The notes under the pieces: generated by a model
The model's database searches: none
What the model was told of the DNA's origin: nothing
The model's input: the letters and a program-made list of their open reading frames with translations, nothing else
From: an uncultured Candidatus Marinamargulisbacteria bacterium
GTDB taxonomy: Bacteria > Margulisbacteria > Riflemargulisbacteria > GWF2-35-9 > DYQY01
Reading direction: 5' to 3'
Assembly (NCBI GenBank): GCA_964429235.1
Contig: CAYSAQ010000002.1
Span: 230,952-294,951 of the forward strand
Length of the DNA: 64,000 nucleotides
Shown: positions 27,845-36,553 of the stretch, piece by piece
Numbering within the stretch: the first letter of the stretch is position 1
How the letters are laid out: every line of letters starts with the position of its first letter
Translations under genes and position numbers: made by a program

Positions 27845-29332
27845 ATGAAAATATCTTTTATATTCACACCTTTTTGTGCACCAACTTTTGTTCCTTATTA
27901 TCTTTGTGAGTTGATTGGTTATTTGTACGCAAGAGGTTTGGATGCTGACTGTTCTATTTTTGATTGGAATATCGAACAGTTTCAAAGAAGTTTGGGAGAT
28001 TTGGCTGAGGTAAAAAGAATAAAGTCCGGTGATTGGAGTAGTTATCTTGATGATAGCTATAGGGTCGCTCATCAGTGGCAAAGAATACAGGAGAAAACAG
28101 AGCTGGAGCTGGAAGCATATTTGAGAAGAGCAGGAAGTGTTCCATCAATTTTTGCCATGGTTGATGAAGAGATAGAATTTTCAGAGTTTGTTTGTTTGTC
28201 GCTTACATTTAACCACAGAGGTGGTGCATCACAGTTTTACCCAACAATTGCGTTAGCTAAATACATAAAAAATAAATGGCCAGAAAAGAAAATAATTCTT
28301 GGAGGAGCATATTTAAACCATATTGGCCGAGAGCAATTAATTAAAATATTTACCGAAATTGACTTTGTTTTATATAGAGAAAGTGAAGAAAGTTTGTTTT
28401 TATTACTTAACGAGACGGAAACAAACAAACAATTAATCCCTAATATGGTTTTCCGAGATAAGGGCAATATTATTACAACCGAACAAGTGGATAATGTTCA
28501 GCGGCAATTAGACTATGTGCCAATATTTGAGGGCATAGAGTTTGATAAATATTTGTCGCCAGAAACTAGTGTTGCTATTCAATATAAAAGAGGTTGTGAT
28601 TGGGGAAAATGCACTTTTTGTTCGCAGAATAATACATATTTCTTGAAACCAGAAGTTAATCAACAAGGCTTTACTAAAAGAGTAGAGGCTTTAAAGAAAG
28701 AAGGGGTTAAGTTTTTGTTTTTGGCAGATCAGATGATTTCACCCAAAGACCTAGCGTTTATTAATTCTGTTTTGGGCGATAGCTTTTTTTGGGCGTGTAT
28801 GATGATGCCGCAGAAGGGCATATCCGGGCAATTGCTAGAAGAAATGTATGCGTCTGGATGCCGGTGGATATGTTGGGGAATAGAATCCGGCAGTAAGGGT
28901 GTTTTGAAAAGCATGAATAAGCCAATGGATATAGAAGTAGCGAAGGCAAATATTATAAATGCTAGCCAATCAGGGATAAAGAATGTTCTTCTGATGATAG
29001 ATGGATTTCCCACAGAGACAGAAGAGGATAGAAAACAATCGTTAGATTTTTTAAAAGAAATGAAACCATATTATTATGATAATTCGCTTAGTCCTTTTCA
29101 TGTATGTCAGGGTTCTTATGTGCAAAATAACCCTGCAGAGTTTGGCATAGAGAAATTATCACGTGTTCCTATCTATAAAGATGATGAGAAAATATTATAT
29201 TCAGAACTGTACTCGTATTCCCCAATGAAAAACATTGAAGTTAATAATGAGGATAGGCGGACAATCCCTTATGCAGAACATATGCTGATTGCTTGCACTC
29301 TTTATAGTGATTTGGCAGTATTAGAACTATGA
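27845..29332 (+). CDS. B12-binding domain radical SAM protein
   Basis: 495 aa. N-terminal about 240 aa has a B12-binding-like layout, followed by the radical SAM cluster CDWGKCTFC. Confidence 0.75.
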   Translation: MKISFIFTPFCAPTFVPYYLCELIGYLYARGLDADCSIFDWNIEQFQRSLGDLAEVKRIKSGDWSSYLDDSYRVAHQWQRIQEKTELELEAYLRRAGSVPSIFAMVDEEIEFSEFVCLSLTFNHRGGASQFYPTIALAKYIKNKWPEKKIILGGAYLNHIGREQLIKIFTEIDFVLYRESEESLFLLLNETETNKQLIPNMVFRDKGNIITTEQVDNVQRQLDYVPIFEGIEFDKYLSPETSVAIQYKRGCDWGKCTFCSQNNTYFLKPEVNQQGFTKRVEALKKEGVKFLFLADQMISPKDLAFINSVLGDSFFWACMMMPQKGISGQLLEEMYASGCRWICWGIESGSKGVLKSMNKPMDIEVAKANIINASQSGIKNVLLMIDGFPTETEEDRKQSLDFLKEMKPYYYDNSLSPFHVCQGSYVQNNPAEFGIEKLSRVPIYKDDEKILYSELYSYSPMKNIEVNNEDRRTIPYAEHMLIACTLYSDLAVLEL

Positions 29333-30027
29333 AATTATTTTTTACTAGGTTAGGGAAACGAGAACGTCATGTTTTAGACGGAATAACTTCTTTAGAAGTA
29401 CGGGAAGCTAGAGTTTTAAAGACATCAACATATTCAAAAGTTCTAGTGAGTAAAAAATTACGTATAGTTTTAAAGGTTTATAAAGATAAGAGCATGGCCC
29501 ATAAAGTACTTAAAAAATATAGATATCTTGAAAGAAGAAGATTAGATAAGTTTTTTGTAAAAATGTATGGACTAGTTGAGATAGATAACGAGTGGATAAT
29601 TGTTATGGACTATTTGGGAATAAGCTCAAGTAGTGAAAGCTTGAAGTCGATGTATGATATGGATCAGAAGAAATGCATAAGGATGATAAGTAAGGCAATA
29701 AGGGCAACGAATAGTAGTGGCTTTTTTCATGGTGATTTAGATCATTTTGGCAACTGGTTTGTTTATGAAGGTATGCCAGTTTTTATAGATATAGATAGAT
29801 CACAGATAGTTAGGTTTAATGTTTTTAAGCGCGTGTATTTTTCTGTTGAGGATAGGATAGGAATTTGTTTAGCATTTCTTATTATCTTTGGTAAAAATAA
29901 AGGTTTCAGGTATGCGAAGCAACTGATCCTTAGATACAGTTTGTTCTCTTTTATTTGGTGGCCATTAGTAGCTGAGTCGCTTAAAAGGTGGTTAATTAGT
30001 CAAAGGTTTTTTAAGATAGAAGACTAG
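29329..30027 (+). CDS. small atypical kinase-like protein (Kdo kinase / RIO / Bud32-like fold)
   Basis: 232 aa with IVLKVYKDK (beta-3 Lys-like), WIIVMDYLG (hinge-like), FFHGDLDHFGNWFV (catalytic-loop-like) and FIDIDRS (DFG-equivalent). ATGA overlap with the radical SAM gene. Confidence 0.5.
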   Translation: MKLFFTRLGKRERHVLDGITSLEVREARVLKTSTYSKVLVSKKLRIVLKVYKDKSMAHKVLKKYRYLERRRLDKFFVKMYGLVEIDNEWIIVMDYLGISSSSESLKSMYDMDQKKCIRMISKAIRATNSSGFFHGDLDHFGNWFVYEGMPVFIDIDRSQIVRFNVFKRVYFSVEDRIGICLAFLIIFGKNKGFRYAKQLILRYSLFSFIWWPLVAESLKRWLISQRFFKIED

Positions 30028-30126
30028 CTTCCCTTTTTACTATCATATCCGCAGATGTTTAAAAATCACTAATGTGGGCTTAATATTTAATGTTAAGAAG
30101 ATATATATGTTAAAGGGGACAAAATT

Positions 30127-31317
30127 ATGACAGGAGCATTATCATTAGATTCAGCAGCATCTAGCAATAGTGTAGCTAGTGTAAACTTACCTACATCAAA
30201 CCCTAAAGATGAACTTTTTGAGAAAAGTGATATTCCATTTGTTCCATCTGGTAGTTTGCCGAATACAAGTCCACCAAGCACTTCAGTAATTGAGCAAACA
30301 AAACCAGAAGTATTGGCGTTTAAAGAAACTAATAAAACACCAGAAGAGTTTAAAGTTACTATTCACAATAGTGCCAGTGAAGAGACGGCAAAGAGTTTTG
30401 TTGATGTGAAAGTAAAGAATGGGTATAAAGCTGGAGAGTGGAAGGAATGGAATAGAGATTTTGCTGAAAATATTTTGGGCCTGCATGATTTGACAGATGA
30501 GGAAATTATGGATGTTGTTAAGCATTTCCAGACGTTACTATATGGGTCTATTAAAGTAGATGGGAAACTAGGGCCAGTGACTTTGATTGCCTTATCAAAA
30601 CTAATGGACATTAAAATACCAGATGATGACTGCTTTAGGTTAGCATATGACCAGAGCAATGATAGTACTCTTGAGAGTCTCACGGCAGAAGATATTCAAG
30701 CGTATGCAAGCAGAAACTATAGTAAGGCATTGGCTTCTTATTTGATAGAAGAAGAAGGGTTTGATGCAAGACCTGATAATCCAGGCGTTGCAAGTGGAGC
30801 TACTATTGGCCATGGGCTTGATTTGAAGTTTGCAAGTTTAGGAGATTTAGCATTAATCAAGAAGTTAGGGCTATTGCCACCAGCAAAAGCAGACTGGCTT
30901 ATATCTTATAAAAAAGGAGAGAAATCTTTGGAAGGGTTTGTATTAACAAGGTCGGAAGCAAGGGCAGTATTGGATAAGATTACTATTCCTAAATTTACTA
31001 GGTTAGCTGAAAACTGGATTGGCAAAGAAAATTTTGATGTATTACCTCAAGAGAAAAAAATTGCGTTGATTGGGTTAGTTTTTAATAGAGGGACTAGGAT
31101 ATCAGGTTCAACTAGAAAAGAAATGGCAGCAACTAGAGGGATTCTAGGAAATCTTTCATCGCTTGATTCGTCAGGTAAAGCAGCTGCATATAAAGAAGTT
31201 TCGTCACAAATAAAACAAATGAATGTCACCATGGCCTCAAGATGGGCTAAGGCAAGAGGGCTGTTTGCTAGAAGAAATAGAGAAGCCTCAATGTTTAATT
31301 TAAACACATATACTTAA
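30127..31317 (+). CDS. peptidoglycan-binding domain plus GH24 (phage-type) lysozyme-like protein
   Basis: 396 aa. Ser/Thr/Pro-rich N-terminus without signal peptide, a PG_binding_1-like segment (VKHFQTLLYGSIKVDGKLGPVTLIAL), then T4-lysozyme-like motifs EEEGFDARPDNPGVASGATIGHG, KKIALIGLVFNRG and SRWAKARGLFARRNRE. Confidence 0.55.
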   Translation: MTGALSLDSAASSNSVASVNLPTSNPKDELFEKSDIPFVPSGSLPNTSPPSTSVIEQTKPEVLAFKETNKTPEEFKVTIHNSASEETAKSFVDVKVKNGYKAGEWKEWNRDFAENILGLHDLTDEEIMDVVKHFQTLLYGSIKVDGKLGPVTLIALSKLMDIKIPDDDCFRLAYDQSNDSTLESLTAEDIQAYASRNYSKALASYLIEEEGFDARPDNPGVASGATIGHGLDLKFASLGDLALIKKLGLLPPAKADWLISYKKGEKSLEGFVLTRSEARAVLDKITIPKFTRLAENWIGKENFDVLPQEKKIALIGLVFNRGTRISGSTRKEMAATRGILGNLSSLDSSGKAAAYKEVSSQIKQMNVTMASRWAKARGLFARRNREASMFNLNTYT

Positions 31318-31426
31318 CTATACAAGTTTCCTTCTATAAATCACGTTATCTAATATGGGTATAACTATGTTTAAAATCAGAGTATTTTGGGCACAATAAC
31401 TATATAAGATAAGGAGGTTGGATAAG

Positions 31427-32512
31427 ATGGCAGTAGGTATGAATACAAACACACTAACTTCGGCGAAGTTTAGAAAACCATCAGAAACCACTATCGAAAG
31501 TCTAGCGACGGTAAAGCCCGGGCCAGCAAATAAGGGGCTTGGAGCAACTAGTGCAGGAGCCGTATTCCTGCCAGTGCCTGGATTAAAAATTGCACAAACA
31601 ACTCCTCAAGAATTGCAAAAGCATGAAACAGTTACAAAAATAAATGCAGGAATTGAAGGTCTATGGGATGGCTCTAACGAAGTTGGGCCAAATGTAAAAG
31701 CATTTATAGCATCTAAAGTTGATGGATTTAAAGGAGCGGCTGGTCGTGAAGAGTGGCAGAGTTGGGGCAAAGAGTTTGTAGAAGCGATGGCTGCAGATTT
31801 AAAAATGTCTCCTGCTGAAGTTGAGGCGCTATCTCCTGCCGATATCTCTAAGTTGGTTGAAACGTTACAATCACAAATTAGCGCAACATGGCAGGTCAGT
31901 TTGTTTGGTCCTGATACATTGATGCATTTAGCTAAAAGGTTAGATAGTACACATGACGGTTTCTTAAATAATCTTAAAACAGACTTAAGCTCAGAAGCTG
32001 CAAAGACTTTTGATAGCAAATGGACAAAGATAACAAATTTTTATAAAGAGATAACAAAATTTGATAATCATTCAAAAGAGGATTTAGTAAAGTTTAATAA
32101 AGCAACTGTTCCATCTACAGATAAAGGTAGTCGATTAGCAAGCGTAGCTAGGCAAGTAGCCTCAGAAATGCCTGGTATTGGAAGATGTAAAAAGGGAGTT
32201 CGATTAGCTTTTGAAAAAGCAGGATTTGGAACAATTGCTGGATTGTCAGCGTATATGGCAGCCCCACAGTTAGCAAAAAGAGGTGGTTTTTCAGAGGCGT
32301 CTGTTAGTAGAAACCAATTGAAACAACTTCCAGCTGGAGCTGTTATTGTTTGGAATAAAGGAAGAATAGGCGGGGGCCGTTTGTCCTCTGCAGGGTTAGA
32401 GCACGGTCATATAGAAATATCATTAGGCAATGGTGGCGAGTTTGCATGCGATTATCAAGGAAGTGTTAATCCACAAAGAGCTCAAAGCTATAGAGTATTT
32501 ATTCCTAAATAA
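31427..32512 (+). CDS. hypothetical protein with C-terminal papain-fold (CHAP/NlpC-P60-like) amidase or peptidase domain (tentative)
   Basis: ATG at 31427 with aaggagg 9 nt upstream, preferred over the track's TTG at 31418. C-terminal GRCKKGVRLAFEKAGFG...AGAVIVWNKG...EHGHIEISLGNGG matches a Cys...His papain-like arrangement; N-terminus is S/T-rich with no signal peptide. Confidence 0.4.
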   Translation: MAVGMNTNTLTSAKFRKPSETTIESLATVKPGPANKGLGATSAGAVFLPVPGLKIAQTTPQELQKHETVTKINAGIEGLWDGSNEVGPNVKAFIASKVDGFKGAAGREEWQSWGKEFVEAMAADLKMSPAEVEALSPADISKLVETLQSQISATWQVSLFGPDTLMHLAKRLDSTHDGFLNNLKTDLSSEAAKTFDSKWTKITNFYKEITKFDNHSKEDLVKFNKATVPSTDKGSRLASVARQVASEMPGIGRCKKGVRLAFEKAGFGTIAGLSAYMAAPQLAKRGGFSEASVSRNQLKQLPAGAVIVWNKGRIGGGRLSSAGLEHGHIEISLGNGGEFACDYQGSVNPQRAQSYRVFIPK

Positions 32513-33739: not shown

Positions 33740-35815
33740 ATGAAACTTCAGGTAGGCGTAAATGTAGATGTAGATTTAATAATAGAAGAGCTAGAGAATT
33801 ATAAATATTCTAGAGTTACCTTGGCTCTTAGTCCTGGTGATTATGCTATTAGAGGAAGCATTATAGATGTATTTCCTTCTAATCAAAATGTTCCTATTAG
33901 AATCGAGTTGTTTGATACAGAGATAGAAGATATCAGAACATTTGAGCCAACATCACAGCGATCCCTGACAAAGCTTAAAAATATTGAGATCAACCCTTTT
34001 GATAAGAATGTAAAGCATCATGATCATATTATCCCGCATGAAATATTATTTGATTTGAATCAAGGAGATAAGGTTGTTCATATCAACCATGGTATCGGTA
34101 TTTATCAAGGGCTAAAGAGGCTAAAGTTTGGTAAATATGAAGGCGAATATGCGGTAGTTGAGTATCAAGAAAATGACAAAATATATATCCCAATAGAACA
34201 GCTTACAAGAATTTATAAATTCTCTGGCGGGGTAGACCCTAAGGTTAATTCTTTAAGAGATAAACAATGGGAGAAGACTCAAAAAAAAGTTAAGAAGGTT
34301 GTAAAAGATGTAGCCAAAGACCTTTTTTATTTATATAAGAATCGTAAGCTTAATGAAGGGTTTTCTTTTGCTGAGGATAGCGAGATGTCTATACAGCTTG
34401 CAGAATCTTTTCCATTTAAGGAAACCAGAGACCAACAAAAGGCAATTGATGATGTTAGAAAAGATATGGAGTCTGCCAAAGTAATGGATAGGCTTATTTG
34501 TGGAGATGTTGGGTTTGGTAAAACAGAAGTAGCAATACGAGCAGCACTTAAAGCAGTAGAGAGTAGAAAGCAGGTCGTATTATTAGCGCCAACAACTATT
34601 CTTTCGAAGCAACATTATGAAGTGTTTAATAAGCGGCTAGGCATTCTCGGAGTTAATGTGGAGTTTCTTAATAGGTTTAAAACACGCAAGGAACAGAGAG
34701 ACACCTTGCAGAGGCTTCAGCAGGGATTAACAGACGTAATCGTGGGGACACATCGTTTGTTGCAAAAAGACGTAGAATTTGCAGATTTAGGGCTAGTGGT
34801 TATTGATGAAGAACAAAGATTTGGAGTGATGGCAAAGGAGCGATTAAAAAAGTATAGAAGCCATGTTGATGTGTTAACTCTTTCAGCGACACCGTTACCA
34901 AGGACGTTATATATGTCTATTTCTGGAATCAGAGATATTAGTGTTATTAATACCCCTCCGTTAGAGAGATTGCCGATTATTACAGAGGAACATGTATTTG
35001 ATATAGATTTTATTAAGAAGAAGATAAATAAAGAGACGCGTAGAAATGGACAGGTGTTTATCTTGCACAATCGTATTCACGACATTATTCACTTAAGGAA
35101 TCAGATACACAATGTGATGCCAGGTTTGGATATTAGAATAGGGCATGGGCAGATGAAGCCAAGAGAGCTTGAGCAGTTGATGGTTGAGTTTTATGAGAAT
35201 AAATTCCCCGTGCTTATAGCTACAACAATTATTGAAAATGGAGTAGATATCCCTAACGCTCATACTATTTTTGTAAATAACGCAGAGCATTTCGGGTTAG
35301 CACAATTGCATCAGTTGAGAGGGCGTGTTGGACGAAACCAGGTGCAGTCTTATTGTTATTTGATGTATAAAAATGCTGATAAATTTACTGATGAGGTTAA
35401 GACCAGGTTTGAGGCACTTATGGAATTCTCAACATTGGGTTCAGGGTATGATATAGCACTTAGAGATTTAGAGTTAAGAGGTATTGGGAATATTTTGGGC
35501 ACAGAGCAAAGCGGTTATATGGAAGCTGTTGGGTTTGAGTTCTATATGCATTTGCTAAATAATGCGATTGCTAAAGAAAAGGGAGTTCAGCAAAAAGAAC
35601 GACCATATATAACTATTTCATCCAAGATGCAGGCATATATTTCAGAAGATTATATTCCAGATATGAATATTCGATTGGCATTATATAAATCTATTGCGGA
35701 GCTAAGTAGTCAGAAACAGGTAGAAAGTTTGAAGCAAGAGTGTGTGGATAGGTTTGGTCCATTGCCGCATAACCTTGTTATTATGTTACAGGTTATTAGC
35801 GAAGAAGTAGTGTGA
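33740..35815 (+). CDS. mfd: transcription-repair coupling factor (Mfd)-like helicase, short form lacking the N-terminal UvrB-homology module
   Basis: 691 aa. Has the Mfd RNAP-interaction segment (GDKVVHINHGIGIYQG...KIYIPIEQL), SF2 motifs (GDVGFGKTEVA; VVIDEEQRFG; HQLRGRVGR) and the start of the C-terminal TRCF domain (LALYKSIA...DRFGPLP), then stops. Canonical Mfd is about 1150 aa. Confidence 0.8.
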   Translation: MKLQVGVNVDVDLIIEELENYKYSRVTLALSPGDYAIRGSIIDVFPSNQNVPIRIELFDTEIEDIRTFEPTSQRSLTKLKNIEINPFDKNVKHHDHIIPHEILFDLNQGDKVVHINHGIGIYQGLKRLKFGKYEGEYAVVEYQENDKIYIPIEQLTRIYKFSGGVDPKVNSLRDKQWEKTQKKVKKVVKDVAKDLFYLYKNRKLNEGFSFAEDSEMSIQLAESFPFKETRDQQKAIDDVRKDMESAKVMDRLICGDVGFGKTEVAIRAALKAVESRKQVVLLAPTTILSKQHYEVFNKRLGILGVNVEFLNRFKTRKEQRDTLQRLQQGLTDVIVGTHRLLQKDVEFADLGLVVIDEEQRFGVMAKERLKKYRSHVDVLTLSATPLPRTLYMSISGIRDISVINTPPLERLPIITEEHVFDIDFIKKKINKETRRNGQVFILHNRIHDIIHLRNQIHNVMPGLDIRIGHGQMKPRELEQLMVEFYENKFPVLIATTIIENGVDIPNAHTIFVNNAEHFGLAQLHQLRGRVGRNQVQSYCYLMYKNADKFTDEVKTRFEALMEFSTLGSGYDIALRDLELRGIGNILGTEQSGYMEAVGFEFYMHLLNNAIAKEKGVQQKERPYITISSKMQAYISEDYIPDMNIRLALYKSIAELSSQKQVESLKQECVDRFGPLPHNLVIMLQVISEEVV

Positions 35816-35827
35816 TTATTCTACTGC

Positions 35828-36553
35828 TCAGGTTCTTGGCTTAAGGTCATTTTTTAATGCCATAAAAGCTTTTAGTGTATCTTTATCAAAAGCAGATAAG
35901 CATAGTATGCTAGAGAGCATGAATTCGCCTGCTACAAAAAATTTGTTTGTATTCCATAACATCATGGCAGGAGTAGATAAAAATAGATGTAAAAGCACAA
36001 ACAATCTAATGCCATAATTTATATTTTTTAGTATGTCGGAAGAATGCAGCCGTTGTACCTTTATTTTTGGTCGTAGTTCCTCAGGTACATTTTTGATTTT
36101 AGATTCATTGCGAATCAATATTTCTTTAATGTCAGATGACGGAACATTCTCTATTCCTACTTGGTATACTGCATGAGGTTGTAAAAACCATTTTTTCCAG
36201 ATACCCGGTTTGGTCAATTGTTTTGATTCTGCTTCAATTGTTATATAGACTTCAGGTTTTTCAGAATGGCCCATGAAAAAGTGCTCTAGTTTTGAGATCT
36301 TTTCTGGATGTGTATTTAGTCCCCAAAGTCTAAGCCATGATGGAGATTCTTTTAGTAATGTTCTGTCTAGATAAGTGATTGATCGAGACTTTACTTGGTC
36401 AGTTTCCGTAATTGCTCCTACTAACTTGTCTGCCAGTACAGTGCTTGAGCGAGATGGAATAATGCCACCACTTTCTGCGATTTTGTGTAGTCGCTCAAAG
36501 CTTGTTCCAAGATATATATTTGTAGTAGTATTCGCAATAATTTTTGTACGCAT
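35828..36553 (-). CDS. hypothetical protein
   Basis: 241-aa ORF with a hydrophobic C-terminal segment and no recognisable motif. Confidence 0.45.
   Translation of the reverse strand: MRTKIIANTTTNIYLGTSFERLHKIAESGGIIPSRSSTVLADKLVGAITETDQVKSRSITYLDRTLLKESPSWLRLWGLNTHPEKISKLEHFFMGHSEKPEVYITIEAESKQLTKPGIWKKWFLQPHAVYQVGIENVPSSDIKEILIRNESKIKNVPEELRPKIKVQRLHSSDILKNINYGIRLFVLLHLFLSTPAMMLWNTNKFFVAGEFMLSSILCLSAFDKDTLKAFMALKNDLKPRT

What the first reader, a model, noticed from the sequence alone, without database searches (positions are those of the whole stretch)
30127..32512. Adjacent pair of peptidoglycan-hydrolase-like proteins with long S/T/P-rich N-termini and no Sec signal
The first protein has a PG_binding_1-like segment followed by T4-lysozyme-like motifs (EEEGFDARPDN...TIGHG; ALIGLVFNRG; SRWAKARGLFARRNRE). 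The second has a C-terminal Cys...His arrangement (GRCKKGVRL...AGAVIVWNKG...HGHIEISLG) resembling CHAP/NlpC-P60 amidases. Both carry 100-250-aa low-complexity N-terminal regions enriched in Ser, Thr and Pro and lack a cleavable signal peptide. No phage structural or holin genes are nearby, so a prophage lysis cassette is unlikely. They could be contact- or secretion-system-delivered cell-wall toxins or host-directed effectors, or unusual division or remodelling hydrolases.
Basis: partly seen in the sequence, partly recalled or inferred. Interest (0 to 1): 0.65.

Follow-up and report, generated by a model that had tools for sequence, protein, structure and literature searches.

The report
Signal-less modular cell-wall hydrolase pair
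Two neighbouring chromosomal genes encode cell-wall-cutting enzymes, one related to pesticin and phage lysozymes and one to the Tae3 endopeptidase; both sit on the same unusual N-terminal scaffold with no standard export signal, so the enzymes are ordinary but how they leave the cell and whose wall they cut is unknown.

Summary
ORFs 30127-31317 (P1, 396 aa) and 31427-32512 (P2, 361 aa) are real genes with orthologues.

- **P1:** its C-terminal domain belongs to the GH24 pesticin/phage-lysozyme clan. A family profile hits pesticin at E 3.4e-5, and hhalign gives 96.5% probability. Glu210, Thr226, Asp232 and Arg382-Arg383 are invariant.
- **P2:** its C-terminal domain is a Tae3-like CHAP/NlpC-P60 cysteine endopeptidase. 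Foldseek gives TM 0.74 to 4hz9, and a profile hits it at E 3.6e-6. Cys254 and His328 align with the catalytic Cys23 and His81.
- **N-termini:** the "100-250 aa low-complexity" description is overstated. Only about 55 residues are disordered. Next comes a folded helical module of about 110 aa, shared by both proteins, very rare, and PG_binding_1-like in its last third.
- **Export signal:** neither protein has a Sec/Tat-type hydrophobic segment, although other proteins in the window have classical signals.
- **Context:** the surroundings are housekeeping genes. I found no phage, T6SS, holin or immunity gene.
- **Relatives:** related genomes carry different catalytic domains (M15, SLT, an added YkuD) on the same scaffold.
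- **Wider family:** 84 Tae3-like genes across diderm phyla show the same signal-less, disordered N-termini in scattered housekeeping contexts.

My best reading is exported, wall-anchoring lytic enzymes, probably used against other cells. Self-directed autolysins remain a serious rival. This is a new variant of a known kind.

The parts
30113..30118 (+). Shine-Dalgarno-like AAGGGG upstream of the P1 start codon
30127..31317 (+). P1 gene (396 aa): leader, shared module, linker, pesticin/GH24-like domain
   Evidence: Orthologues are P0002, P0014 and P0020, in syntenic loci L001, L006 and L169.
30127..30294 (+). P1 disordered N-terminal leader (aa 1-56), Ser/Thr/Pro-rich, no hydrophobic core
   Evidence: pLDDT <50. 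STP fraction 0.42, the highest in the window. It is 38-54% identical to orthologues, as conserved as the catalytic domain at 35%.
30295..30624 (+). P1 shared helical module (aa 57-166; motif GEWKEWNRDF...VDGKLGPVTL); the last third is PG_binding_1/3-like
   Evidence: It is 59-65% identical among P1 orthologues, the most conserved part of the protein.
30742..31314 (+). P1 pesticin/GH24-like lysozyme domain (aa 206-396). Predicted catalytic or strictly conserved residues: E210 (30754-30756), P219, T226 (30802-30804), D232 (30820-30822), LVFNRG 317-322, R382-R383, E386
31412..31417 (+). Shine-Dalgarno AGGAGG upstream of the P2 ATG
31427..32512 (+). P2 gene (361 aa from ATG 31427; the ORF listing gives TTG 31418): leader, shared module, helical linker, Tae3-like domain
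31427..31591 (+). P2 disordered N-terminal leader (aa 1-55)
   Evidence: pLDDT <50 for residues 1-49. STP fraction 0.30. The weakly hydrophobic stretch at 38-56 scores KD19 = 1.29 and is not conserved in orthologues.
31592..31951 (+). P2 copy of the shared helical module (aa 56-175; EEWQSWGKEF...SLFGPDTL)
   Evidence: The same module carries a Peptidase_M15 domain in P0016.
32117..32509 (+). P2 Tae3-like CHAP/NlpC-P60-clan cysteine endopeptidase domain (aa 231-361). Residues: C254 (32186-32188), H328 (32408-32410), D342 (32450-32452)

Best explanation
P1 and P2 are a pair of modular murein (peptidoglycan) hydrolases built on one lineage-specific N-terminal scaffold. The scaffold is a ~55-aa disordered leader with no Sec/Tat features, followed by a ~110-aa helical module whose last third resembles a PG_binding_1 wall-binding motif. 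Different catalytic 'warheads' are attached to it.

P1 carries a pesticin/phage-endolysin-type GH24 lysozyme domain that should cut the glycan strand. P2 carries a Tae3-type Cys-His endopeptidase domain that should cut peptide cross-links. Together they would take peptidoglycan apart from both sides.

**Shown:** the domain identities, the conserved catalytic residues, the shared module, the lack of a classical signal, the housekeeping context, and the swapping of warheads in relatives.

**Inferred:**
1. The proteins are exported, because their only plausible substrate lies outside the cytoplasm.
2. The conserved disordered leader is the recognition element for a Sec-independent route that I could not identify.
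3. The helical module anchors the enzyme on peptidoglycan.
4. The main target is the wall of other cells (competition, predation or scavenging) rather than the producer's own wall. The producer's outer membrane would protect it, which would explain why no immunity gene is present.
For: **Enzyme identity of P1**
- Orthologues give consistent sub-threshold Pfam hits to Pesticin (best E 2.7e-5) and Phage_lysozyme (4e-4).
- There are 219 relatives in viral contigs, each about 200 aa and single-domain. These relatives are 39-41% identical to annotated endolysins of Xylella, Xanthomonas and Stenotrophomonas phages.
- A profile of the P1 family plus viral homologues hits pesticin 4aqn at E 3.4e-5, then other GH24 lysozymes. 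hhalign against the pesticin activity domain gives 96.5% probability, E 9e-10.
- Of the 18 profile members, 12 hit Phage_lysozyme and 10 hit Pesticin.
- Invariant E210, P219, T226 and D232 reproduce the Glu-x8-Pro and Thr-x5-Asp spacing of pesticin E178/P187/T201/D207. Alanine mutants E178A, T201A and D207A of pesticin are inactive (PMC3390615).

**Enzyme identity of P2**
- The AlphaFold model has mean pLDDT 76, and blocks 74-94 over most of the C-terminal domain, with a dip to 53-68 at about residues 311-330.
- The best PDB matches are Tae3 4hz9 (E 5.4e-4, target TM 0.74, 25% identity), then Tae1/Tse1.
- A sequence profile hits 4hz9 at E 3.6e-6, with GRC and HGH aligned on Cys23 and His81. 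These two residues are the known catalytic dyad (PMC11796386).
- C254, H328 and D342 are invariant in 80 homologues, 57 of which give weak CHAP hits.
- Homologues fuse the domain to PG_binding_1/2/3 or LysM.

**Scaffold**
- The pairwise P1/P2 match has E 8e-6.
- The module profile finds only 19 proteins among 1.8 billion representatives. Some of these carry SLT or M15 domains.

**Warhead swapping**
- P0016 has the P2-type leader and module with Peptidase_M15.
- P0014 is P1 plus YkuD_2.
- P2 orthologues sit next to an SLT protein (L002) or an M15 protein (L003).

**Leaning towards non-self targets**
- The closest characterised relatives of both warheads are interbacterial toxins or phage lysins, not housekeeping autolysins.
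- The second gene of the slot varies between close relatives.
- Tae3-like homologues form tandem arrays and multi-copy families. They occur in many diderm phyla, including predatory lineages.

**No classical signal**
- The same holds family-wide: only about 3 of 84 homologues look Sec- or lipoprotein-like.
Against: - No secretion apparatus, chaperone, holin or immunity gene lies in the 64-kb window. None is conserved next to the orthologues.
- P1 has stayed at the same housekeeping locus in four genomes that are only 42-45% identical. That is more typical of a housekeeping gene than of a fast-turning-over weapon.
- A wall-binding module is typical of autolysins and endolysins.
- P1 itself reaches no Pfam threshold, and its structure model is poor (pLDDT 57).
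- Export is inferred, not shown.
- The source organism and its lifestyle are not established. The nearest named relative is a Riflemargulisbacteria MAG.
Confidence: 0.45

Rival explanations
1. Self-directed autolysins. The two enzymes remodel the producer's own sacculus (division, growth, or making room for an envelope-spanning machine). They reach the periplasm by a specialised route such as the flagellar type III export gate, as FlgJ does. The disordered leader would be the export signal and the module would hold them on the wall.
For: - P1 is retained at one syntenic housekeeping locus in four divergent genomes.
- There is no immunity gene and no room for one.
- A PG_binding-like module is present.
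- A disordered N-terminus without a Sec signal is what FlgJ-type substrates have (my own knowledge).
- Some Margulisbacteria carry flagellar genes.
- The P2 N-terminus MAVGMNTNTL resembles flagellar axial-protein N-termini. This is a resemblance from memory, not tested.
Against: - No Rod_binding domain was found in P1, P2 or 80 homologues.
- No flagellar genes lie in the window or among the neighbours.
- The second gene is dispensable or variable among close relatives.
- The nearest characterised relatives of both domains are toxins or phage lysins.
- Tandem multi-copy arrays elsewhere are unusual for housekeeping hydrolases.
Confidence: 0.3
2. Colicin/pesticin-like bacteriocins. The disordered leader would be an import (translocation) domain carrying TonB/Tol-type epitopes, not an export signal. 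The helical module would be the receptor- or wall-binding part, and the C-terminal domain would be the killing domain. The proteins would be released by lysis or leakage and taken up into the periplasm of related diderm cells.
For: - The domain order and size match pesticin: a disordered T domain, a middle domain and a C-terminal lysozyme-like activity domain, 357 aa in pesticin against 396 aa in P1.
- P1's warhead is pesticin-like.
- Killing domains are swapped on a constant N-terminal part, as in colicins and pyocins.
- All homologue-bearing lineages found are diderms.
- Beta-prone N-terminal residues 2-8 (MTxxLxLD, MAVxxN) sit where colicin M and pesticin have their TonB box. This comparison is from memory and was not tested.
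Against: - No adjacent immunity gene of the Pim/Cmi type and no lysis gene.
- A PG_binding-like module is not a known receptor-binding domain.
- No recognisable TonB-box consensus was demonstrated.
- Long-term syntenic retention of P1.
Confidence: 0.12
3. Type VI secretion effectors of the Tae/Tge kind, loaded on Hcp/VgrG and injected into neighbouring cells.
For: - Tae3 and Tae1 are the best structural matches for P2.
- Pesticin domains occur on VgrG in Vibrio fluvialis (PMC9620997, title listed).
- A. baumannii Tae17 combines a lytic transglycosylase with a Tae3-like amidase.
Against: - No T6SS gene, PAAR, adaptor or immunity gene lies in the window.
- None appears among 103 immediate neighbours of homologues, nor in recurrent neighbour clusters.
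- At 361-396 aa with a wall-binding module, the proteins are unlike the ~120-150-aa Tae effectors.
- Many host phyla of the family are not known for T6SS (my own knowledge).
Confidence: 0.05
4. Remnant or domesticated phage lysis genes. They would be released through a holin, either for programmed lysis or for a holin/endolysin-type (type 10) secretion route.
For: - P1's catalytic domain is homologous to phage endolysins.
- Endolysins lack signal peptides.
Against: - No holin, spanin or phage structural gene lies nearby, and the context is core chromosome in four genomes.
- P2's domain and the shared module have no relatives in 2.9 million viral contigs.
- The viral relatives are ~200-aa single-domain proteins without the leader or module.
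Confidence: 0.05

Closest known systems
Pesticin activity domain (Yersinia pestis; PDB 4aqn; Pfam PF16754) and its phage-endolysin relatives in the GH24 clan (PF00959)
   Same: - P1 residues ~206-396 are homologous at profile level: E 3.4e-5 by hmmsearch and 96.5% by hhalign.
- The strictly conserved Glu / Pro / Thr-x5-Asp / Arg-Arg pattern is the same.
- The overall order is the same: disordered N-terminus, middle domain, C-terminal lysozyme-like domain.
   Different: - P1 itself is below every Pfam threshold.
- The middle part is an unrelated, rare helical module with a PG_binding-like end.
- There is no Pim-like immunity gene and no demonstrated TonB box.
- The gene sits in a chromosomal housekeeping context instead of on a plasmid.
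Tae3 (type VI amidase effector 3, Ralstonia pickettii; PDB 4hz9), a D,D-endopeptidase of the CHAP/NlpC-P60 clan
   Same: - The P2 C-terminal domain has the same fold (target TM 0.74).
- The profile match has E 3.6e-6.
- The catalytic Cys-His dyad is aligned (C254/H328 on C23/H81).
   Different: - P2 is three times longer, with a disordered leader and a wall-binding-like module.
- There is no T6SS linkage and no Tai3/IseA-type immunity gene.
- The family is spread over Margulisbacteria-like, Vulcanimicrobiota, Sericytochromatia, Melainabacteria, Myxococcota and other genomes as orphan genes.
Acinetobacter baumannii Tae17 (bifunctional T6SS effector: lytic transglycosylase plus Tae3-like amidase)
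   Same: It combines a glycan-strand cutter with a Tae3-like peptide cutter. That is the same functional pairing as P1+P2, and as the SLT+P2-orthologue pair in L002.
   Different: In Tae17 the two activities are fused in one T6SS-delivered protein with an immunity partner. Here they are two genes on a shared non-T6SS scaffold.
FlgJ (flagellar rod cap and muramidase)
   Same: It is a peptidoglycan hydrolase with no Sec signal and a disordered N-terminal part, exported by a specialised route.
   Different: P1 and P2 have no Rod_binding domain, no flagellar gene context and different catalytic families.

Membership tests
GH24 clan: Pesticin (PF16754) / Phage_lysozyme (PF00959) - P1 | The window protein itself passes the curated family threshold | tested here: not met
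   P1 gave no lysozyme-family hit at E<=0.1. The direct PDB phmmer search gave none. tblastn of its domain against 50,697 phage records found nothing.
GH24 clan: Pesticin (PF16754) / Phage_lysozyme (PF00959) - P1 | Profile-level homology of the P1 family to family members | tested here: met
   - Orthologues hit Pesticin at 2.7e-5 (24.6 bits against a cut-off of 25.8) and Phage_lysozyme at 4e-4.
- Profile A8 hits pesticin 4aqn at E 3.4e-5, then GH24 lysozymes.
- hhalign gives 96.5%.
- Of 18 aligned members, 12 hit PF00959 and 10 hit PF16754.
GH24 clan: Pesticin (PF16754) / Phage_lysozyme (PF00959) - P1 | Catalytic or strictly conserved residues: Glu, Pro, Thr, Asp (pesticin E178, P187, T201, D207) and the C-terminal Arg-Arg | tested here: met
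   - E210, P219, T226, D232, R382 and R383 are invariant in 18 sequences.
- T226, D232 and R382-R383 align directly with pesticin T201, D207 and R339-R340.
- The Glu and Pro are matched by spacing only: E-x8-P and T-x5-D are identical to pesticin.
GH24 clan: Pesticin (PF16754) / Phage_lysozyme (PF00959) - P1 | Two-lobed lysozyme fold | tested here: inconclusive
   - The model has pLDDT 57, and the region around the catalytic motif (residues 177-231) is below 50.
- Foldseek's top hits are T4 lysozyme, but at E ~0.5 and probability 0.8.
GH24 clan: Pesticin (PF16754) / Phage_lysozyme (PF00959) - P1 | Muramidase activity on peptidoglycan | not testable with these tools
   This needs zymography or muropeptide analysis.
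Tae3 / CHAP-NlpC/P60 catalytic domain - P2 | Papain-like alpha+beta fold matching Tae3 | tested here: met
   Foldseek against 4hz9_A gives E 5.4e-4, TM 0.74 normalised to the target, and 25% identity. Tae1/Tse1 come next. Model blocks over the domain score 74-94, with a dip at about residues 311-330.
Tae3 / CHAP-NlpC/P60 catalytic domain - P2 | Catalytic Cys-His dyad in register (Tae3 C23/H81) | tested here: met
   The profile alignment puts GrC on GRC(23) and hGH on HGH(81). The dyad is as stated in PMC11796386. C254, H328 and D342 are invariant in 80 sequences.
Tae3 / CHAP-NlpC/P60 catalytic domain - P2 | The window protein passes the Pfam CHAP threshold | tested here: not met
   P2 gave no hit. 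Fifty-seven of 80 homologues give weak CHAP hits, best E 2.6e-5.
T6SS Tae effector-immunity system | Genetic linkage to T6SS genes (hcp, vgrG, PAAR, adaptors) | tested here: not met
   None is present in the 64-kb window. None appears among 103 immediate neighbours of homologues or in the recurrent neighbour clusters.
T6SS Tae effector-immunity system | Adjacent cognate periplasmic immunity gene (Tai3/IseA-like) | tested here: not met
   The intergenic gaps are 99 and 109 bp. The P2 stop codon abuts the convergent flavin-reductase gene.
Colicin/pesticin-type bacteriocin | N-terminal intrinsically disordered translocation domain | tested here: met
   pLDDT is below 50 for residues 1-56 (P1) and 1-49 (P2).
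Colicin/pesticin-type bacteriocin | TonB or Tol box in the disordered domain | not tested
   I have only a visual resemblance of residues 2-8, and no model or assay was available.
Colicin/pesticin-type bacteriocin | Linked immunity and/or lysis gene | tested here: not met
Prophage lysis cassette | Holin, spanin or phage structural genes adjacent | tested here: not met
   The neighbours are a radical-SAM enzyme, a RIO-like kinase, flavin reductase, ferritin and Mfd. The rest of the window is housekeeping. The same synteny is found in L001, L006 and L169.
PG_binding_1 (PF01471) - shared module | Full-length domain match above threshold | tested here: not met
   - Only partial, sub-threshold matches to model positions 30-57 of 57, at E 0.013-0.016. 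PG_binding_3 matches at E 0.008-0.018.
- Multi-repeat PG_binding-type proteins match only profile positions 80-114 of the module.
FlgJ-type flagellar hydrolase | Rod_binding domain and flagellar operon context | tested here: not met
   No Rod_binding hit in P1, P2 or 80 homologues. No flagellar genes in the window.

The most novel reading that the evidence does not exclude
The disordered, signal-less leaders mark substrates of an unrecognised Sec-independent export or delivery route for peptidoglycan hydrolases in diderm bacteria. The window pair would be one instance of a much larger class. At least 84 orphan Tae3-like endopeptidase genes fall in it, from Vulcanimicrobiota, Sericytochromatia, Melainabacteria, Margulisbacteria-like, Myxococcota, Bdellovibrionales, Negativicutes and other genomes. 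They have a median of 154 low-complexity residues ahead of the domain, almost never a Sec signal, and no T6SS, phage or flagellar neighbours. In the Margulisbacteria-like lineage the leader plus a rare helical module acts as a reusable chassis onto which GH24, Tae3-like, M15, SLT and YkuD warheads are exchanged.
Probability: 0.2. Interest if true: 0.8.

Novelty: new variant of a known kind. Interest (0 to 1): 0.5.

Why it matters
Both catalytic domains belong to well-known families, so the enzymology is ordinary. The packaging is not. A conserved disordered leader replaces a signal peptide. A very rare helical module (19 hits among 1.8 billion protein representatives) is shared by enzymes with different warheads. 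Those warheads are exchanged at one chromosomal slot in a poorly known lineage close to Margulisbacteria.

The same signal-less, low-complexity N-termini run through a large orphan Tae3-like family in many diderm phyla. If they turn out to be an export or import signal, this would define a new way of moving wall-degrading enzymes across a Gram-negative envelope. It would also supply new lysin scaffolds. If the proteins are simply autolysins using a known specialised gate, the finding is a modest annotation gain for two 'hypothetical proteins'.

Tried and rejected
**Searches that gave nothing significant**
- Direct Pfam, PDB and PHROG searches with P1 and P2.
- hhalign of the three-sequence P1 alignment against T4 lysozyme: probability 1%.
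- A four-sequence P1 domain profile against the PDB.
- tblastn of the P1 domain against cultured phages.

**Partial or weak results**
- The AlphaFold model of P1, built from only three sequences, was poor. The fold searches on it are therefore only suggestive.

**Hypotheses tested and dropped**
- The FlgJ idea, which came from Met-rich N-termini in homologues, was tested through Pfam and found no Rod_binding domain.
- Linkage to T6SS, phage or pilus genes was tested by clustering 753 neighbour ORFs and annotating recurrent clusters and 103 immediate neighbours. The results were heterogeneous housekeeping genes, a zinc-ribbon protein recurring in 15 loci, a small downstream ORF recurring in about 6 loci, and PilT-like ATPases in four loci, three of them syntenic Vulcanimicrobiota loci.
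- Viral relatives of the P2 domain and of the shared module: none.

**Taxonomy of the window, unresolved**
- Its genome was not among the loci returned from the GTDB representative genomes.
- Cluster look-ups gave no organism names.
- A lead that it might be related to the placozoan symbiont 'Ruthmannia eludens' (Marinamargulisbacteria) could not be verified, and I do not rely on it.

**A wrong turn**
- The 423-aa gene after the P1 orthologue in L001 and L169 looked like a secretion ATPase (weak T2SSE/SpoIIIAA hits). It has no detectable relation to the PilT-like neighbours elsewhere. It may be a housekeeping Ycf45-like ATPase, though that last point is from memory.

Full report
**What is there**

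The window is low-GC (about 35%) with a strong positive GC skew throughout. At the stated coordinates lie two same-strand ORFs: P1, 30127-31317 (396 aa), and P2. P2 is listed from TTG 31418. ATG 31427 lies 9 nt after an AGGAGG, and orthologues begin MAV..., so I take 31427-32512 (361 aa) as the gene.

Both are real genes. P1 has orthologues of 42-45% identity (P0002, P0014, P0020). P2 has orthologues of 43-44% identity, one of them from a Riflemargulisbacteria MAG.

**Surroundings**

The whole 64-kb window is core chromosome. It encodes PolA, RRF, UppS, CdsA, Dxr, DprA, Pth, a fatty-acid synthesis operon, ETF/acyl-CoA dehydrogenase, Pta-AckA, LptF/G, an AcrB-type pump with its outer-membrane factor, FolP and others.

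The immediate neighbours are a radical-SAM enzyme and a small RIO-like kinase upstream. Downstream, on the opposite strand, are flavin reductase and ferritin, followed by Mfd. There are no phage, holin, T6SS, T3SS or flagellar genes. The gaps around the two genes are 99, 109 and 0 bp, so there is no room for a small immunity gene. Promoter and terminator scans were not above chance.

**Anatomy**

AlphaFold gives pLDDT below 50 only for residues 1-56 of P1 and 1-49 of P2. These leaders are the two most Ser/Thr/Pro-rich N-termini among 57 ORFs of the window (0.42 and 0.30; median 0.14).

After the leader comes a folded helical region. The two proteins are homologous there: P1 55-161 against P2 58-176, 26% identity, E 8e-6. 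A profile of this module was searched exhaustively against 1.8 billion representative proteins. It found only 19 proteins.
- These include more P1 and P2 orthologues.
- P0016 is a 466-aa protein with a P2-type leader and module but a Peptidase_M15 C-terminus.
- P0024 is a 386-aa protein with an SLT domain.
- Other hits have two copies of the module.
- Classical multi-repeat PG_binding proteins match only the last third of the profile.
- Pfam gives partial sub-threshold PG_binding_1/3 matches at the same place.

I therefore read the module as a rare helical domain ending in a PG_binding_1-like wall-binding motif.

**No classical export signal**

Neither protein has a hydrophobic segment that could serve as a Sec, Tat or lipoprotein signal. 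The maximum 12-residue hydropathy near the N-terminus is 0.66 and 1.44. Bona fide exported proteins of the same window score 2.3-3.5.

In P1 orthologues the leader is 38-54% identical and the module 59-65%, against 35% for the catalytic domain. The leader is therefore under sequence constraint and is not a mere linker.

**P1 catalytic domain**

Decisive evidence came from relatives:
- All three orthologues give consistent sub-threshold hits to Pfam Pesticin and Phage_lysozyme and to PHROG endolysin families.
- The domain has 219 relatives in IMG/VR viral contigs. They are about 200-aa single-domain proteins, 28-34% identical over nearly the full domain.
- One of these is 39-41% identical to annotated endolysins of Stenotrophomonas, Xanthomonas and Xylella phages.
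- A profile of the P1 family plus 15 viral homologues hits pesticin (4aqn) at E 3.4e-5, then GH24 lysozymes.
- hhalign against the pesticin activity domain gives 96.5% probability.
- Twelve of 18 members pass as Phage_lysozyme hits and 10 of 18 as Pesticin hits at E <= 0.01.
- Invariant residues are E210, P219, T226, D232, LVFNRG, W373, R382, R383 and E386.
- Pesticin's strictly conserved residues are E178, P187, T201, D207 and Q301, with R339 and R340 also strongly conserved. E178A, T201A and D207A are inactive (PMC3390615). The spacings Glu-x8-Pro and Thr-x5-Asp are identical in P1.

P1 is therefore a pesticin-type member of the GH24 clan with an intact active-site pattern. Its warhead is of phage-endolysin ancestry.

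**P2 catalytic domain**

The model built from 12 homologues is good over most of the C-terminal domain.
- The best solved match is the T6SS effector Tae3 (4hz9: E 5.4e-4, target TM 0.74, 25% identity), followed by Tae1/Tse1.
- A sequence profile also finds 4hz9 (E 3.6e-6), aligning GRC with Cys23 and HGH with His81. These are the known catalytic dyad (PMC11796386).
- Tae3 is described as a D,D-endopeptidase (PMC12700454).
- In an 80-sequence alignment C254, H328 and D342 are invariant.
- Fifty-seven of 80 give weak CHAP hits. Many others carry PG_binding_1/2/3 or LysM.
- The domain has no relative in viral contigs.

**Comparative context**

P1 sits in the same slot (…AI-2E transporter, NYN, … P1, …, flavin reductase, ferritin, Mfd) in three other genomes (L001, L006/L007, L169). 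The gene after it varies:
- the Tae3-like P2 in this window;
- a P-loop ATPase in L001 and L169;
- in L006, a P1 with an extra YkuD_2 domain, followed by the M15 protein P0016 and a further Cys/His protein with a repeat-rich leader.

P2 orthologues elsewhere follow an SLT-domain protein (L002) or an M15 protein (L003). So one chassis carries exchangeable warheads, and glycan-cutting and peptide-cutting enzymes tend to be paired.

**The wider Tae3-like family**

In one genome per GTDB species, 126 relatives were found in Vulcanimicrobiota, Sericytochromatia, Melainabacteria, Myxococcota, Burkholderiales-labelled MAGs, Bdellovibrionales, Bradymonadia, Riflebacteria, Planctomycetota and Selenomonadaceae. 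All are diderm lineages.

Of 84 distinct ORFs, the median stretch ahead of the domain is 154 aa with 70% S/T/P/G/N/Q/A/M. Only about three have a Sec- or lipoprotein-like start. Many have striking Met/Gln/Gly-rich N-termini, and tandem arrays occur. Neighbour clustering and Pfam annotation showed heterogeneous housekeeping contexts and no T6SS, phage or flagellar linkage.

**Interpretation**

- **Shown:** two modular murein hydrolases with intact catalytic residues, a shared rare scaffold, no classical signal, no linked apparatus or immunity gene, and warhead exchange in relatives.
- **Inferred:** export, because cross-linked peptidoglycan is the only plausible substrate; a role of the constrained leader in that export (or in import); and wall anchoring by the module.

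I lean (0.45) towards enzymes directed at other cells. Both warheads are closest to toxins or lysins, the cassette varies between relatives, and the family forms multi-copy arrays. An outer membrane would make immunity unnecessary for enzymes released to the outside.

The main rival (0.3) is self-directed autolysins using a specialised gate such as the flagellar export apparatus. It is supported by the long syntenic retention of P1 and the missing immunity gene. Some Margulisbacteria do have flagellar genes.

A colicin/pesticin-like import reading (0.12) fits the domain order but lacks immunity and lysis genes. T6SS effectors and prophage lysis genes are unlikely (0.05 each).

**Limits**

- The organism is not identified.
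- The route across the envelope is unknown.
- P1's fold rests on profile homology rather than on a confident model.
- No activity was measured.

Noticed in passing
window 26133-27755 (-): This 540-aa protein has the third most Ser/Thr/Pro-rich N-terminus in the window (MQTTKTTTNITSTQG) and no signal peptide. It has a weak LPD3 match (E 1.3e-4). Its C-terminal motifs (FEGGN, HIDT, GVDCRT) look to me like a guanidino-group-modifying (pentein) enzyme, but that is from memory only. No PDB sequence hit was found. It is conserved as a 545-aa gene in L006/L007. It may be another signal-less exported protein of the same organism.
   Followed up: partly
L001 11310-12581 (+) and L169 9179-10345 (+): In two related genomes the slot occupied here by P2 holds a 388-423-aa P-loop ATPase with weak T2SSE / Spore_III_AA / STAND matches. 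It shows no detectable similarity to the PilT-like ATPases near some Tae3-like genes elsewhere.
   Followed up: partly
L006 10793-11950 (-): This 385-aa protein lies next to the M15 hydrolase. It has a long low-complexity N-terminus with three copies of PSFW(E/Q)RLFG and a C-terminal Cys...His arrangement (DCYRLPH...GGHVVLI). It has no Pfam hit. It could be a further hydrolase with a different leader.
   Followed up: no
L033, L042-L046, L058, L061, L063, L064, L066, L069 and others (Vulcanimicrobiota, Burkholderiales-labelled and Selenomonadaceae MAGs): Tae3-like paralogues here have extreme Met/Gln/Gly-rich N-termini (for example MAFNPMMM...MMQMMQMMQMM). Tandem arrays occur: four copies in L035 and two in L038. 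A conserved ~140-aa ORF starts 6-52 bp downstream in about six loci (weak DUF4245 match, no signal peptide). A ~430-aa zinc-ribbon protein recurs nearby in 15 loci.
   Followed up: partly
window 33740-35815 (+): The Mfd (transcription-repair coupling factor) gene encodes only 691 aa, and relatives have the same length (691-692 aa). E. coli Mfd is about 1150 aa (from memory). This appears to be a naturally short form lacking much of the N-terminal region.
   Followed up: no
window 27845-30027 (+): A 495-aa radical-SAM protein overlaps by 4 nt a 232-aa RIO1/protein-kinase-like ORF directly upstream of P1. The kinase-like gene is also upstream of P1 in L001 and L006, but it is absent in L169. It is therefore not an obligate partner.
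   Followed up: partly
window 35828-36553 (-): This 241-aa protein has no Pfam hit. It has a Thr/Asn-rich N-terminus (MRTKIIANTTTNIY) and a hydrophobic C-terminal stretch.
   Followed up: no
whole window: GC skew is positive in 30 of 32 2-kb bins and most genes are on the + strand, so the window probably lies on one replichore with + as the leading strand. The source genome was not among the loci returned from the GTDB representative genomes. Its proteins occur on contigs of up to 410 kb in several public metagenome sources.
   Followed up: partly
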